Positions 45,457 to 62,747 of a stretch of DNA of 64,000 nt are shown piece after piece; within the stretch, counting starts at the first letter, position 1; every line of letters starts with the position of its first letter. A program made the position numbers and the translations under genes. The notes under the pieces were generated by a model. The model saw only the letters and a program-made list of their open reading frames with translations, was not told where the DNA came from and did not search any database. Source of the DNA: the human T2T-CHM13v2.0 reference genome, Homo sapiens; NCBI RefSeq assembly GCF_009914755.1, contig NC_060929.1. The stretch is one strand, 5' to 3'.

Positions 45457-46014
45457 AAGTTACAGAAAGTGAAAAACGAGTTTAGTCTTCACACCTCTAT
45501 ATGAATCTGGTTTTGACAGAGTCAACTGTTTTCTTCTGCCATAGGGCGATGACAGCCACTAATTTGAGGAGCAGGGGTAAACAGTGCCCTTGACATAAAT
45601 GTTTGTGCTGTGGGGGCCACTAATAAGAGAAGTAGGGGTGATGTTTTCAGACAGTGTCATGGAATTATAAGGGGTCCATTAATTCGATGTCCAGGAATTT
45701 AAATCATGCTTTGTTAGATATAAGTTTATTTTACTGTGAAATGCAAACTCTTTAAGGGCAGAGTCCATATCTAGTTTGTTCAACACTTTATACTTAAAAC
45801 CCAGCAGAGAATCTAGTGCAAAATCCTAAGAACTAACTTTCACAGAATGCTTAATGTAGACTAGACATAGTTCTCAGCACCTGACTAGTTTTTATTACTT
45901 AATCCTCATGATACATGTGGGATGTGGGCCTTGGCGTACATAGAAGTTGCTAATGACCACAAACCCGGTATGTGATAGAGCTGGACTAGGTCAAAGTCCA
46001 TTATAAATATATTT
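45457..46014 (+). repeat. Donor copy of a 558-bp inverted duplication
   Basis: Its reverse complement aligns without gaps to 62190-62747, with 17 mismatches by hand count. Confidence 0.96.
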
Positions 46015-47467
46015 GGTCAAGAATTTTCTTTATAAATACTTTACCAAACGGCCTATCTCTCTGGTGTTAGAAATACAATTGGATACATTATTGAATCCAC
46101 ACATAGTGAACCTCTGGGACATGAAGAATTCATTGACCGAGTTATTTTTGTTGTCTGTAAAAAATTACAAAGGGATTCCTGGTTGGGGGTCAAAGTGTTA
46201 GGAAGAGGACTGGATAGGTTTTTGAGAGTGAAGGTGGGGGAAATTTCCAGTCACTGAGAAAGGAAGCATCCCCAATCACCAAATTTACAAAACAAAAATT
46301 TGCCTAGGTGAAGACGAAAGCATGCACATGAAGCAAGTTGATAGAAAATATTTTATCAATAGTGTAATGATCACAAGAAAAAAAAAGTAGAAATAGAAAT
46401 GGAAAATACAAAACATTGTAATCAAAGTGTATCCCATTATCTTTAAATATATATCTTTGTATATCTTCCAGATTATATGTTCTGATTAGAATATGCTAGT
46501 GTATTTCAGATTTCATGAGTTTATTGGAGTCATTTTATTTTAACCGAAAATGGGTTGGGCATTTGGCACTAAAAATCCAATGTGAAATATGGCATATGAT
46601 TGTGACAGACAGAAACTGAAGCAGAGGGAAACAAGAAGGGAAGGAGTTGGTAAGAGAGAAGAAGAAGAAACAAATACTTTAAGAAATAAAAATGAATGGA
46701 AATAAGGGGCAGATAAATAGAGATCAACAGAAAATAACATTGTAAAGAAGAGTAGGGCAATAATAGAGAAATCTTATCTTATTCCATAAGACTCTATTTC
46801 TTCACAAAGCTAATACTTGCAGTTTTTAACTCTTTGATTTAAATGAAAATATCTTGTACTATCTGAAAATAATTTTAGAATTAAATCATTGTGTATTATT
46901 TATAGATGTATTCTTAATTCTTTGATTATGCATCAGATTTAACTGTTAATATATGGGATACACAAGGCATGACAGAGTTCCTAAATATTACTTGTTAGTT
47001 TTCCTATGTAAATTGGTTTATTTGGATACATAGGAGTAAAGAAAATCACACCTGCAATAATTATAATGTTAGTCTTTTATTTTCCTTTAAATAAGGTAGG
47101 AGAGTTACAATAAAAGATCAATACAAGTTTATGAGGTAAAATATATCTACTTTTTATTTAGACACATTTATATGGTTATATATAGTGATATATGTGATTA
47201 TATATAGTTTTATATATATACAGATATATATAGATATGTATGTATTAAAATGCAGGGGTTTTATCCCCTTATATTCTTATTTAGATTTAATTTAAATGAG
47301 AAGGACATTTGATTTAAAGTAATAAATAAGAAAGATACTAATTTACAGGAGTTACTCACGATTGAATAAATTAAAAGATTTCCAGACTAGATTTTGAATA
47401 ATAAATAATAAACATAACTACTTAACAGAGAAAAATAGTAAGGCATAAAATTGTCCAGCTATCTCTG

Positions 47468-47832
47468 TGATATGGTTTGGCTATGTTCCCACCCAAATCT
47501 TATCTTGAATTGTGACTCCCACAATTCCCATGTGTCACGGGAGGCCCTGATGGGAAGGTGATTGAATTATGGGGGAGGGTCTTTTCTGCATCTTTCTCCT
47601 GAGAGTGAATAAGTCCCAAGACATCTGATGGTTTTAAAAACAGGAGTTTCCCTGCACAAGCTCTCTTTCTTTGCCTGCTGCCATCCGTGTAAGACATGAT
47701 TTGCAACTCCTTGCCTTCTGCCATGATGATTGTGAGGCCTCCTCAGCCATGTGGAACTGTAATTCCATTAAATCTCCTTTTCTTCCCAGTCTCGGATATG
47801 ACTTTATCAACAGCATAAAACAGACTAATACA
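47468..47832 (+). mobile_element. THE1 solo LTR (MaLR)
   Basis: tgatatggtttggct...gactaataca; perfect 5-bp TSD ctctg. Confidence 0.92.
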
Positions 47833-59220: not shown

Positions 59221-61550
59221 TATATATATTATATATATAAAATAAGTATTTTATATATATGTAATACTTTCAGTTCTAGAGTACATGTGCACAACATGCA
59301 GGTTTGTTACATAGGTATATATGTGCCATGTTGGTTTGCTGCACCCATTAACTCGTGATTTACATTAGGTGTTTCTCTTAATGCTATCTATTCCTACCCC
59401 AGCCGCCCATCCTAAGACAGGCCCCGGTGTGTGATGTTCCCCACCCTGTGTCCAAATGTTCTCATTGTTCAGTTCCCACCTATAAGTGAGAACATGCAGT
59501 GCTTAGTCTTCTGTCCTTGTGATAGTTTGCCGAGAATGATGGTTTTCAGTTTCATTCATGTCCCTGCAAAGGACATGAACTCAACATTTTTTATGGCTGC
59601 ATAATATTCCATGGTGTATATGTGTCACCTTTTTTTAATCCAGTCTATCACTGATGGACATGTGGGTTGGTGCCAAGTCTTTCCTATCGTGAATAGTGCC
59701 ACAATAAACATACGTGTGCATGTGTCTTTGTAGTAGCATGATTTATAATCCTTTGGGCATATATCCAGTAATGGCATCACTGGGTCAAATGGTATTTCCA
59801 GTTCTAGATCGTTGAGGAATTGCCACACTGTCTTCCACAATGGTTGAATTAATTTACACTCCCACCAGCATTGTAAAAGCGTTCCTATTTCTCCACATCC
59901 TCTCCAGCATCTCTTGTTTCCTGACTTTTTAATGATCGCCATTCTAACTGGTGTGAGATAGTATCTCGTGGTTTTGATTTGCATTTCTCTGATGACCAGT
60001 GATGATGAGCATTTTTTCATGTGTCTGTTGGCTGCATAAATGTCTTCTTTTGAGAAGTATCTGTTCATATCCTTTGCCCACTTTCTGATGGGGTTGTTTG
60101 TTTTATTCTTGTAAGTTTGTTTAAGTTCTTTGTAGATTCTAGATATCAGCCCTTTGTCAGATGGGTAGATTGCAAATATTTTCTCCCATTCTGTAGGTTG
60201 CTTGTTCACTCTCATGGTAGTTTCTTGGGCTATACAGAAGCTTTTTAGTTTAATTAGATCCCATTTGTCTATTTTGGCTTTTGTTGCCATTACTTTTGAT
60301 GTTTTAGTCCTGAAGTCCTCGTCCATGCCTATGTCCTAAATGGTATTGCCTAGGTTTTCTTCCAGGGTTTTTATGGTTTTAAGTCTAAAATTTAAGTCTT
60401 TAATCCATTTTAAATTAATTTTTGTATAAGGTGTAAGGAAGGGATCCAGTTGCAGTTTTCTACATATGGCTAGCCAGTTTTCCCAGCACCATTTATTAAA
60501 TATGGAATCCTTTCCCCATTTCCTGTTTTTGTCAGGTTTGTCACATGATTATCTCAATAGAGGCAGAAAAGGCCTTTGACAAAATTCAACAGCCTTCATG
60601 CTAAAAACTCTCCATAAACTAGGTATTGATGGAACGTATCTCAAAATAATAAGAGCTATTTATGACACACCCACAGCCAATATCATACTGAATGGGCAGA
60701 AACTGGAAGCATTCCCTTTGAAAACTGGCACAAGACAGGGATGCCCTCTCTCACCATTCCTATTCAACGTAGTGTTGGAAGTTCTAGTCAGGGCAATCAG
60801 GCAAGATAAATAAATAAAGCGTATTCAATTAGGAAAAGAGGAAGTCAAATTGTCCCTGTTTGCAGATGGCATGATTGTATATCTAGAAAACCCCATCGTC
60901 TCAGCCCTAAATCTCCTTAAGCCGATAAGCAACTTCAGCAAAGTCTCAGGATACAAAATCAACGTGCAAAAATCACAAGCATTCTTATACACCAATAACA
61001 GACAAACAGAGAGACAAATCATGAGTGAACTCCCATTCAAAATTGCTACAAAGAGAATACAATACCTAGGAATCCAACCTACAAGGGATTTGAAGGACTT
61101 CTTCAAGGAAAACTACAAACCACTGCTCAACGAAATAAAAGAGCACACAAACAAATGGAAGAACATTTCATGCTCATGGATAGGAAGAATCAATATCATG
61201 AAAATGGCCATACTGCCCAAGGTAATGTATAGATTCAATGCCATCCCCATCAAGCTACCAATGACTTTCTTCACAGAATTGGAAAAAAAAACTACTTTAA
61301 AGTTCATATGGAACCAAAAAAGAGCCCACATAGCCAAGACAATCCTAAGAAAATAGGACAAAGCTGGAGGCATCATGCTACCTGACTTCAAACTATACTA
61401 CAAGGCTACAGTAACCAAAACAGCATGGTACTGGTACCAAAACAGATAAATAGACCAACGGAACAGAACAGAGGCCTCAGAAACACCGCCACACATCTAC
61501 AACCATCTGATCTTTGACAAACCTGACAAAAACAAGAAATGGGGAAAGGA
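59221..61550 (-). mobile_element. L1PA6/PA7-like insertion with a 5' inversion (minus 59262-60543, plus 60542-61550)
   Basis: ORF2 C-terminal ORF 59625..60326 (-) and RT ORFs 60598..61356 (+); TSD aggaggaa(a/g)ta at 59210-59220 and 61547-61557. Confidence 0.93.
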
Positions 61551-62189
61551 GGAAGTACTTCTAAACTCATTCTGTGAAGCCAGTATTACCCTGATACCAT
61601 AGTCAGGCAAAAATACAGCCCCCCCCCCGCAAAAAAAAAAGAAACAAAGAAAGAAAATAAAACTGCAGGCCAAAATCCTTGATAAATATTGACACAAAAA
61701 TCCTCAACAAATTCTAGCAAACTGAATTCAATAACAGATTAAAAAGAATATTTATCATGTCCAAGTGGGGTTTATTCCTGGGATGCAAGGATGGTTCAGC
61801 ACATGCAACCCCAAGCAATGTGATATAGTGTATCAACAGAATAAAGGGAAAACCATGTGATTACTTATAATGATGTTGAAAAGGCATTTAATAGAATTCA
61901 ACATCCCTTCATGATAAAAACCCTAAAAACGTAGGGATAGAAAAAAACATACTTTAACACAACATGAGCCATATATGAAAGATCCCCAGCTAGTATACTG
62001 GGGAAAAAGTGAAATACTTTCCTCTAAGATTTGGAGAAGACAAGGATGCCCAAGTTCACCACTGTTATTCAACATAGCAGTGTAAGTCACAGAGCAGTTA
62101 AACAAGAGAAAGACATAAATGGCATCCAATGCGGATGCCATTATAATTAGGATAGCTTTGGCTACTCTAGGTCTTCTATATTTAGAAGG

Positions 62190-62747
62190 AAATATATTTG
62201 GAATGGACTTAGACCTAGTCCGGCTCTATCACATACCGGGTTTGTGGTCATTAGCAACTTCTATGTACCCCAAGGCCCACATCCCACATGTATCATGAGG
62301 ATAAAGTAATAAAAACCAATCAGCTACTGAGAACTATGTCTAGTCTACATTAAGCATTCTGTGAAAGTTAGTTCTTAGGATTTTGCACTAGATTCTCTGC
62401 TGGGTTTTAAGTATAAAGTGTTGAACAAACTAGATATGGACTCTGCCCTTAAAGAGTTTGCATTTCACAGTAAAATAAACTTATATCTAATAAAGCATGA
62501 TTTAAATTCCTGGACATCGAATTAATGGACCCCTTGTAATTCCATGACACTGTCTGAAAACATCACCCCTACTTCTCTTATTAGTGGCCCCCACAGCACA
62601 AACATTTATGTCAAGGGCACTGTTTACCCCTGCTCCTCAAGTTAGTGGCTGTCATCGCCTTATGGCAGGAGAAAACAGTTGACTCTGTCAAAACCAGATT
62701 CATATAGAGGTGTGAAGAATAAACTCCTTTTTCACTTTCTGTAACTT
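62190..62747 (-). repeat. Inverted 558-bp copy of 45457-46014 inserted in L1MA ORF2
   Basis: Ungapped ~97% identity; L1 sequence on both sides; no poly(A) or TSD. Confidence 0.96.

What the first reader, a model, noticed from the sequence alone, without database searches (positions are those of the whole stretch)
45457..62747. The inverted pair brackets only CDH9 exon 3: candidate long pre-mRNA duplex controlling back-splicing or skipping
Seen in sequence: one copy lies in intron 3 and the other in intron 2, and exon 3 (50330-50624, 295 nt) is the only exon between them. Established: reverse-complementary intronic matches promote circRNA formation, exon skipping and ADAR editing. Inference: a 558-bp duplex at ~97% is longer and better paired than a typical Alu pair. 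It could produce a 295-nt single-exon circRNA, and skipping a 295-nt exon would shift the frame and probably trigger NMD. That would be a lineage-specific dosage control on a synaptic cadherin. The pair is also a substrate for a ~16-kb inversion that would flip exon 3. The 16-kb spacing may limit pairing.
Basis: inference. Interest (0 to 1): 0.75.

Follow-up and report, generated by a model that had tools for sequence, protein, structure and literature searches.

The report
Inverted intronic duplicate flanking CDH9 exon 3
A 558-base piece of a CDH9 intron was copied backwards into the neighbouring intron millions of years ago by a DNA-repair accident, so the two copies could pair in the RNA and loop out one exon, but nothing yet shows that this changes how the gene is used.

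Summary
Arms at 45457-46014 and 62190-62747 are ungapped reverse complements, 541 of 558 identical. They are the only two copies in the whole assembly. Exon 3 (295 nt) is the only annotated exon between them.

New here is the origin. The intron-2 arm is the derived copy. It lies in a 618-nt composite insertion that interrupts an old LINE-1-like element, and every recognisable piece of that insertion is an inverted copy of nearby DNA. That pattern fits one template-switching repair or replication event. Divergence dates it to about 13-31 million years ago.

The pre-mRNA could form an exclusive duplex of about -994 kcal/mol enclosing a 16.2-kb loop. No other significant reverse-complementary match links the two introns within the window.

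The proposed function is untested. I found no human CDH9 circRNA, exon-3 skipping, editing or inversion in what I could search, and the paper reader closed midway. Mouse Cdh9 makes circRNAs, and this pair is probably too young to be shared with mouse. Verdict: a sound but ordinary candidate, most likely a neutral scar. Intronic A-to-I editing would be its likeliest molecular consequence.

The parts
45457..46014 (+). Arm A, the source copy. It is unique sequence in CDH9 intron 3 and begins 4,315 nt downstream of the exon 3 donor in the transcript.
   Evidence: Searches give the match; one search finds only two copies in the genome. Nothing marks arm A as an insertion.
62190..62747 (-). Arm B, the derived inverted copy of arm A (541 of 558 identical). 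It lies in CDH9 intron 2 and ends 11,565 nt upstream of the exon 3 acceptor.
   Evidence: It interrupts a LINE-1-like element that is otherwise collinear with another copy in the window.
62130..62189 (+). A 60-nt filler between the left LINE flank and arm B. Bases 62133-62142 are a fold-back copy of 62118-62127 (10-bp stem, 5-nt loop). Bases 62147-62177 are an inverted copy of 63218-63248 (30 of 31). Bases 62178-62189 are of unclear origin and may be residual LINE sequence.
   Evidence: Caveats: perfect 9-bp hairpins occur about once per kb in this window. A LINE copy on chromosome 11 also matches the filler in 37 of 41 bases.
63218..63248 (+). Likely template of the 31-nt filler piece, in the same LINE element 1.05 kb from the insertion.
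   Evidence: E 2.5e-10. One search shows two variant bases shared by the filler and this copy but not by the chromosome 11 copy.
62748..62759 (+). Junction homeology: 12 nt of host LINE sequence (10 of 12 to the other LINE copy) that also match the flank of arm A in 9 of 12 positions.
61640..62129 (+). Left part of the old host LINE-1-like element (sense on the + strand, antisense to CDH9).
   Evidence: Aligns at 68% with 32052-32558. That comparator runs straight on into 32267-33274, which is 88% identical to 60542-61550, a stretch that encodes RVT_1 reverse-transcriptase pieces.
62748..63999 (+). Right part of the same host element. The other copy has 13 nt where this locus has 618 nt.
   Evidence: Aligns with 32572-33828.
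50330..50624 (-). CDH9 exon 3: 295 nt, open in frame 1, with canonical AG acceptor and GT donor. By my recognition of the sequence it encodes most of cadherin domain EC1.
   Evidence: Hub gene table. The EC1 assignment is recalled and comes from no tool.
43668..43988 (+). The only Alu-like ~300-nt repeat in intron 3. It has 10 inverted partners at 72-83% identity in the inferred intron 2, the nearest at 68210-68503. These are weaker, more distant alternative pairings with many competing partners.
   Evidence: The name 'Alu' is inferred from length and copy number; no tool named it.

Best explanation
The pair is the scar of one old template-switching repair or replication event of the MMBIR/FoSTeS or polymerase-theta end-joining type. 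A break or stalled fork inside an old LINE-1-like element in CDH9 intron 2 was healed by copying nearby DNA in inverted orientation. The copied pieces were a 10-nt fold-back of the adjacent bases, about 31 nt from 1.05 kb away in the same LINE, and 558 nt of unique intron-3 sequence from 16.2 kb away. Synthesis then re-entered the LINE at a 12-nt stretch of imperfect homology. The result is a two-copy inverted duplication, about 13-31 million years old, that is neither a transposon pair nor long enough to count as a segmental duplication. Because both copies lie in one transcription unit, the CDH9 pre-mRNA carries a near-perfect 558-bp self-complementarity with no other partner in the genome, and pairing would loop out 16.2 kb containing exon 3. 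I infer that the pair is selectively neutral. Where the duplex forms, its likeliest consequence is ADAR hyper-editing of intronic RNA, with at most a small shift towards exon 3 back-splicing or skipping. Shown: the copy number, the direction of copying, the composite structure, the energetics and the lack of competing partners. Inferred: a single event, the repair pathway, the date, neutrality and editing.
For: The sequence occurs in two copies only in the 3.1-Gb assembly. The same tool finds about 70%-identical members of a dispersed family with a 1.4-kb query (3,466 first-look candidates), so it can see diverged repeats. Arm B is an insertion: window 61640-62129 and 62748-63100 align collinearly with 32052-32558 and 32572-32926 of another LINE copy, which has 13 nt where this locus has 618 nt. 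The insertion is composite and inverted throughout: a 31-nt piece matches 30 of 31 (E 2.5e-10), a 10-bp fold-back sits at the left junction, and 9 of 12 bases are homeologous at the right junction. Neither end of arm B carries a poly(A) tract or an evident target-site duplication. The 31-nt piece (1 difference in 31) and the arms (17 in 558) are about equally diverged, which fits one event. The arms show 17 substitutions, 14 of them true mismatches in the RNA duplex, so nothing suggests that pairing has been preserved. No evidence of use was found: RefSeq gives one transcript (hub table), and I found no human CDH9 circRNA in text searches or in two supplement searches.
Against: Only one of the junctions shows homeology; the others show no microhomology. 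The 31-nt piece is LINE-family sequence. A LINE copy on chromosome 11 matches 29 of 31 in the core and 37 of 41 overall, against 30 of 31 for the local copy, so the local template is favoured but not proven. A perfect 9-bp hairpin occurs about once per kb here, so the fold-back is weak evidence alone. A two-step history cannot be excluded without outgroup genomes. The mismatches are mildly clustered: the longest perfect run is 164 nt, P = 0.045. That could mean gene conversion, which would make the event older, or constraint on the centre. Neutrality rests on absence of evidence. CDH9 is expressed in few cell types, so the circRNA catalogues I could search may simply lack depth, and one planned supplement check could not be run.
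Confidence: 0.65

Rival explanations
1. The A/B duplex forms co-transcriptionally, brings the exon 3 splice sites together and measurably promotes a 295-nt single-exon circRNA and/or exon 3 skipping. Skipping would shift the frame and lead to NMD, giving a primate-specific control of CDH9 dose.
For: A/B is the only significant reverse-complementary match between intron 3 and the 13.4 kb of intron 2 in the window, and the strongest against all 123 kb upstream. Neither arm has a competing partner anywhere in the genome. The duplex energy is -994.5 kcal/mol, against -119.5 and -133.3 for the arms folded alone. Exon 3 has ordinary splice sites, and 295 nt is not a multiple of 3. Short inverted repeats of about 30-40 nt suffice for circularisation in minigenes (PMC4201285, start of abstract seen in the listing).
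Against: The arms lie 11.6 and 4.3 kb from the splice sites and enclose a 16.2-kb loop. A genome-wide dsRNA scan chose 10-kb windows because most known long-range intramolecular RNA contacts span less than that (PMC11838218, passages). The exon 2 donor is transcribed about 72 kb before the acceptor, so forward splicing of intron 2 can begin about 4.6 kb of transcription before arm A exists. I found no human CDH9 circRNA: 0 occurrences of 'CDH9' in the one held supplement file of PMC10507039, and in PMC8355340 only 2 occurrences in 18 files, both mouse. No paper was found either. RefSeq lists one transcript only. Mouse brain makes Cdh9 circRNAs, and the pair's estimated age of 13-31 million years implies that mouse lacks it, so circularisation at this gene probably does not need it. 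I could not test the mouse genome directly. From memory and not checked here: ADAR editing and DHX9 unwinding of long intronic duplexes reduce circRNA output, and very stable hairpins do not always help.
Confidence: 0.12
2. The arms are two independent insertions of one transposable-element family, like an inverted Alu or LTR pair.
For: Most intronic inverted pairs in human genes are of this kind. The region is rich in LINE and Alu-like repeats.
Against: There are only 2 copies genome-wide, and the same search detects about 70%-identical family members for another query. The arms have no poly(A), no terminal repeats and no target-site duplication. Two rare elements landing 16 kb apart at 97% identity is improbable. 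Arm B arrives together with other templated pieces.
Confidence: 0.02
3. The pair matters mainly at the DNA level. Recombination between the inverted arms produces a recurrent or polymorphic inversion of about 16.7 kb that flips exon 3 and inactivates the allele.
For: The arms are inverted, 558 nt long and 97% identical, with a 164-nt perfect tract. The mild clustering of mismatches (P = 0.045) would fit past gene conversion between the arms.
Against: The identical tracts are short: 164 nt, against the few hundred nt usually quoted for efficient meiotic non-allelic recombination (recalled, not checked). In this assembly exon 3 is in the gene's orientation (hub table). No paper links CDH9 with an inversion and inverted repeats (0 hits). 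Only one genome was available, so polymorphism is untested.
Confidence: 0.05
4. The direction is the reverse: arm B is ancestral and arm A is the copy.
For: None found. The possibility is formally open because no outgroup genome could be examined.
Against: Arm B, together with 60 nt of other material, splits a LINE element whose two flanks are collinear with another copy. A LINE cannot insert around pre-existing sequence. Arm A has no such signs.
Confidence: 0.03

Closest known systems
Reverse-complementary intronic matches flanking circRNA exons, such as inverted Alu pairs (Jeck 2013, Zhang 2014 and Ivanov 2015 recalled; Liang and Wilusz 2014, PMC4201285, start of abstract seen)
   Same: Complementary sequences sit in the two introns flanking an exon with normal splice sites, within a single transcription unit.
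   Different: This is not a repeat-family pair: there are two copies in the genome, so pairing is exclusive rather than competitive. The match is much longer and cleaner (558 nt at 97%) and much further from the splice sites (11.6 and 4.3 kb). No back-splice product is known for this exon.
Mouse Sry circular transcript, a single exon flanked by very long inverted repeats (Capel 1993 and Dubin 1995, recalled; not read here)
   Same: Long, nearly perfect, non-transposon inverted duplication around one exon. This is the classic case in which such arms drive circularisation.
   Different: In my recollection, the Sry arms are many kilobases long and lie next to the splice sites. Here the arms are 558 nt and kilobases away, and no circle has been observed.
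Templated insertions from template switching, MMBIR/FoSTeS or polymerase-theta end joining (PMC8421209 and PMC7954356, starts of abstracts seen)
   Same: The inserted DNA is copied from nearby templates, more than one template is used, all pieces are inverted, homeology is present at a junction, and retrotransposition marks are absent.
   Different: The main tract (558 nt) is long for a templated insertion, and its template is 16 kb away. The event is fixed and ancient, not somatic or pathogenic. Microhomology is seen at only one junction.
Long intramolecular dsRNA substrates of ADAR hyper-editing, such as genome-wide dsRNA catalogues (PMC11838218, passages)
   Same: A predicted long, highly paired intronic duplex in a gene expressed in neurons.
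   Different: The arms are 16.2 kb apart, outside the 10-kb window of that scan, so the pair was presumably not catalogued there. Editing was not tested.

Membership tests
Intronic complementary pair that drives exon circularisation | Reverse-complementary sequences in the upstream and downstream introns of the same exon | tested here: met
   exon table from the hub.
Intronic complementary pair that drives exon circularisation | A back-splice junction of the enclosed exon is observed in RNA | not testable with these tools
   No RNA-seq was available. There were 0 human CDH9 entries in the held supplements of PMC10507039 and PMC8355340. No paper was found.
Intronic complementary pair that drives exon circularisation | The product depends on the pair (deletion or mutation lowers it) | not testable with these tools
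   This needs an experiment.
Transposable-element pair (inverted Alu, LINE or LTR) | Membership of a dispersed multi-copy family | tested here: not met
   2 of 2 first-look candidates are the arms themselves. Sensitivity control.
Retrotransposed or LINE-transduced copy | Poly(A) tail and target-site duplication at the derived copy | tested here: not met
   The ends of arm B were read directly.
Segmental duplication (usual definition of at least 1 kb and at least 90% identity, recalled) | Length of 1 kb or more | tested here: not met
   558-570 nt. Identity of 97% would qualify.
Template-switch or templated-insertion scar (MMBIR/FoSTeS-like) | The inserted sequence is a copy of nearby DNA and interrupts an otherwise continuous sequence | tested here: met
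Template-switch or templated-insertion scar (MMBIR/FoSTeS-like) | Several templates are used within one insertion | tested here: met
   558 nt from 16.2 kb away, 31 nt from 1.05 kb away, and a 10-nt fold-back. The local origin of the 31-nt piece is favoured, not proven.
Template-switch or templated-insertion scar (MMBIR/FoSTeS-like) | Microhomology at the switch points | tested here: inconclusive
   9 of 12 homeology at 62748-62759; none evident at the other junctions.
ADAR hyper-editing substrate | A long, nearly perfect duplex within one transcript | tested here: met
   541 Watson-Crick and 3 G-U pairs of 558; -994.5 kcal/mol. Both arms lie within the CDH9 transcription unit (hub table).
ADAR hyper-editing substrate | Clustered A-to-G differences in RNA reads | not testable with these tools
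   No RNA data. Of 3 papers holding 'CDH9' and 'A-to-I', the 2 listed are, by title, on hibernation-linked editing and on paediatric asthma; neither was opened.
Inversion mediated by inverted repeats | Both orientations exist among haplotypes | not testable with these tools
   A single assembly only. 0 papers for CDH9 + inversion + inverted repeats.

The most novel reading that the evidence does not exclude
A repair accident confined to apes or Old World primates gave CDH9 an exclusive 558-bp RNA clamp around the exon that, by my reading, encodes most of adhesion domain EC1. In CDH9-expressing neurons the clamp diverts part of the pre-mRNA into a 295-nt exon 3 circle or a frame-shifted, NMD-targeted exon 2-exon 4 mRNA. 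ADAR editing or helicase activity would set the fraction. This would be a lineage-specific dose control on a synaptic cadherin that standard repeat, segmental-duplication and 10-kb dsRNA catalogues would all miss.
Probability: 0.07. Interest if true: 0.6.

Novelty: new member of a known kind. Interest (0 to 1): 0.3.

Why it matters
If the duplex forms in vivo, it would be a clean natural test of how far apart complementary arms can lie and still influence back-splicing or exon choice. Unlike Alu pairs, it has a single possible partner, and a datable origin should leave related primates without it as natural controls. The pair falls between the usual annotation nets: it is not a repeat family, it is under 1 kb, and its arms are more than 10 kb apart. 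Similar templated inverted insertions in other genes may therefore be under-catalogued sources of long intronic dsRNA. If it does nothing, as I think most likely, it is still a well-resolved example of an old germline multi-template insertion.

Tried and rejected
2. The original mouse circCdh9 paper (Gasparini 2020) is not held. I saw it only through passages in the reviews PMC12830984, PMC8490812, PMC7463782 and PMC12122743, so I do not know which exons the mouse circles contain. The mouse coordinates could not be mapped to exons.
3. The paper reader closed, before I could search the isoCirc supplements (PMC7803736). Papers found after that are cited from search listings only.
4. The Rfam scan of 41000-64000 found 0 families at gathering score.
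5. RNAduplex on the 1.5-kb flanks next to exon 3 was uninformative: -345 kcal/mol, against -340 to -391 for 10 shuffles.
6. Pfam on 5 open frames of the LINE region gave RVT_1 for 2 of 5, both in the younger element at 60580-61353. The 2 frames taken from the host element right of arm B gave nothing. The 'LINE-1' label therefore rests on homology to the RVT_1-bearing copy and on my recognition.
7. A whole-loop fold of 17 kb was not attempted, because it is too slow for the script limits.
8. I considered and rejected retrotransposition and LINE transduction (no poly(A) or target-site duplication) and LINE twin priming (the inverted LINE piece is only about 31 nt).
9. No primate outgroup genome is reachable with these tools, so presence or absence across species was not tested.

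
Full report
**Observation.** The repeat finder gives arms 45445-46014 and 62190-62759: 570 nt, 96% complementary, 16,175 nt apart. An ungapped comparison shows 20 mismatches in 570 and no indels. The core, 45457-46014 against 62190-62747, has 17 mismatches in 558, or 96.95% identity. The next best reverse-complement match between intron 3 and the intron 2 sequence in the window is 16 nt (E 0.024), so the pair is far beyond chance.

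**It is not a repeat family.** A search of the whole 3.1-Gb assembly with arm A returned two places only, the arms themselves (2 candidates, 2 scored). As a sensitivity control, the same tool was given a 1.4-kb GC-rich stretch from the same intron. It returned 3,466 first-look candidates, and the 39 scored candidates other than the query's own place matched at 67-85% identity. A dispersed family around 70% identity would therefore probably have been seen, though a 570-nt query is less sensitive than a 1.4-kb one.

**Which copy is derived.**
- Arm B sits inside an old LINE-1-like element that is sense on the + strand. Window 61640-62129 aligns with 32052-32558 of another LINE copy in the window, and 62748-63100 aligns with 32572-32926.
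- The other copy has 13 nt where this locus has 618 nt (62130-62747). Arm B is therefore part of an insertion into a pre-existing element, and arm A is the source.
- The LINE label rests on two things. The comparator copy runs straight on into 32267-33274, which is 88% identical to 60542-61550, and that stretch encodes RVT_1 pieces: 2 of the 5 frames tested hit RVT_1, and the 2 frames from the host element itself did not. The rest is my recognition.

**Anatomy of the insertion.** It is composite, and every recognisable piece is inverted relative to its template.
- 62133-62142 is a fold-back of the adjacent 62118-62127 (10-bp stem, 5-nt loop).
- 62147-62177 is an inverted copy of 63218-63248, 30 of 31 identical, 1.05 kb away in the same LINE (E 2.5e-10).
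- 62178-62189 is of unclear origin.
- 62190-62747 is the 558-nt inverted copy of intron 3.
- The LINE resumes at 62748. Its first 12 nt match the other LINE copy in 10 of 12 positions and the flank of arm A in 9 of 12, an imperfect homology at the re-entry point.
- No poly(A) and no target-site duplication are seen at the ends.

**Caveats on the anatomy.**
- Perfect 9-bp hairpins occur about once per kb in this AT-rich window: 67 in 64 kb.
- The other junctions show no microhomology.
- The 31-nt piece is LINE-family sequence. A genome search with the filler found one other place besides the query's own, a related LINE copy on chromosome 11, matching 37 of 41 bases overall and 29 of 31 in the core; it did not list the local source.
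- Two variant bases are shared only with the local copy, so the local template is favoured but not proven.

Taken together, the structure fits one multi-template switching event of the MMBIR/FoSTeS or polymerase-theta type. Such templated insertions are described in PMC8421209 and PMC7954356 (only the starts of the abstracts were seen).

**Age.**
- Seventeen differences in 558 give a Jukes-Cantor distance of 0.031, with a Poisson 95% range of 1.8-4.9%.
- Assumed rates of 1.2, 1.0 and 0.5 x 10^-9 per site per year give about 13, 16 and 31 million years. The rates are recalled values.
- The 31-nt piece differs at 1 of 31 positions, which is consistent with the same age.
- The mismatches are mildly clustered: the longest perfect run is 164 nt, P = 0.045 by simulation. 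That might reflect gene conversion.

**Position in the transcript.**
- CDH9 is on the - strand, so arm B is transcribed first.
- Arm B ends 11,565 nt upstream of the exon 3 acceptor. Arm A begins 4,315 nt downstream of the exon 3 donor.
- Exon 3 has a polypyrimidine tract with an AG acceptor and a GT donor. It is 295 nt and open in frame 1. I recognise the product as most of cadherin domain EC1, but that is recalled.
- I located exon 2 outside the window from an open frame carrying a recalled cadherin motif. The start codon is at about 123093 and the donor follows 122866. Intron 2 is then about 72.2 kb. This is my inference and is not in the hub's table.

**Pairing potential.**
- As RNA, the arms form 541 Watson-Crick and 3 G-U pairs out of 558, with 14 mismatches. 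The longest uninterrupted helix is 166 bp.
- The duplex energy is -994.5 kcal/mol, against -119.5 and -133.3 for the arms folded alone.
- Intron 3 contains one Alu-like repeat (43668-43988). It has 10 inverted partners at 72-83% identity within the inferred intron 2, the nearest 17.6 kb upstream of exon 3. It also has 8 same-orientation relatives there that can pair with those partners.
- A/B is thus the nearest, strongest and only exclusive cross-exon pairing.
- A second long inverted pair, LINE against LINE (33239-34343 and 59417-60543; 1,130 nt at 85%), brackets exons 3-7 and interleaves with A/B.

**Evidence on function.** I found none.
- Text searches returned no paper on a human CDH9 circRNA, on CDH9 exon 3 or on a CDH9 inversion. 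For editing, 3 papers hold both 'CDH9' and 'A-to-I'. The 2 listed are, by title, on hibernation-linked editing and on paediatric asthma, and neither was opened.
- 'CDH9' occurs 0 times in the one held supplement file of a human neuron circRNA study. That file may be cut at 4 million characters (PMC10507039).
- In a nanopore brain circRNA study, 'CDH9' occurs twice in 18 files, and both entries are mouse Cdh9 circles spanning 9.1 and 3.9 kb (PMC8355340).
- Reviews report a mouse circCdh9 altered in an autism model (passages).
- Mouse therefore circularises Cdh9 exons, and the age estimate implies that it does so without this pair. I could not check the mouse genome directly.
- A genome-wide dsRNA scan used 10-kb windows because most known long-range RNA contacts are shorter than that (PMC11838218, passages). 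The 16.2-kb loop here lies outside that range and outside that catalogue.
- RefSeq lists one transcript.
- These negatives are weak.

**Mechanism and verdict.**
- Best supported: an old, fixed scar of template-switching repair that happens to give the CDH9 pre-mRNA an exclusive long self-complementarity.
- Most likely it is neutral. If the duplex forms, the consequence I expect first is ADAR hyper-editing of intronic RNA. Any promotion of exon 3 back-splicing or skipping would be limited by the distances and by the head start of forward splicing of intron 2.
It is unsupported by data so far.
- Compared with known systems, the pair works like intronic complementary pairs around circRNA exons, and its closest formal analogue is the mouse Sry arrangement (recalled). 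Membership of the functional class cannot be claimed without a back-splice product.
- Novelty: a new member of known kinds, in both origin and potential effect. Interest is modest.

Noticed in passing
window 33239-34343 and 59417-60543: A second long inverted pair, LINE against LINE: 1,130 nt at 84.8%. One arm is in intron 7 and one in intron 2, so the pair brackets exons 3-7 (1,025 nt of exon). It interleaves with the A/B pair, because its intron-2 arm lies inside the A/B loop. It could pair in the pre-mRNA too, but LINE sequence has many alternative partners.
   Followed up: no
window 59417-61550: A younger LINE copy whose two halves are in opposite orientation. 60542-61550 is direct to 32267-33274 (88%), while 59417-60543 is inverted relative to 33239-34343. 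RVT_1 pieces lie on the + strand at 60580-61353, and a 236-aa open frame lies on the - strand at 59625-60335. This looks like a 5'-inverted (twin-priming type) insertion lying inside the older LINE.
   Followed up: partly
window 54100-55500: A GC-rich (46-54%) 1.4-kb island in an AT-rich intron. It belongs to a large dispersed family (3,466 first-look candidates; scored matches elsewhere in the genome 67-85% identical). It contains three 59-nt direct repeats spaced 331 and 308 nt apart. It may be the 5' region of the old LINE that continues to 64000. It was not named by any tool.
   Followed up: partly
window 36989-37134: Two 74-nt stretches offset by 72 nt are 100% identical (36989-37062 and 37061-37134). 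This is a perfect tandem or simple repeat about 40 nt into intron 7 from the exon 7 donor.
   Followed up: no
outside the window, about 122866-123093 in window coordinates (locus L008): The coding part of CDH9 exon 2, inferred from an open frame with a start codon, a basic cleavage-like site and the conserved start of EC1, followed by a GT donor. Intron 2 is then about 72.2 kb.
   Followed up: partly
mouse chr15:16823158-16832278 and 16828343-16832278 (supplement of PMC8355340): Two mouse brain Cdh9 circRNAs, with 8 and 2 nanopore reads. Which exons they contain, and whether the orthologue of human exon 3 is among them, could not be determined.
   Followed up: no
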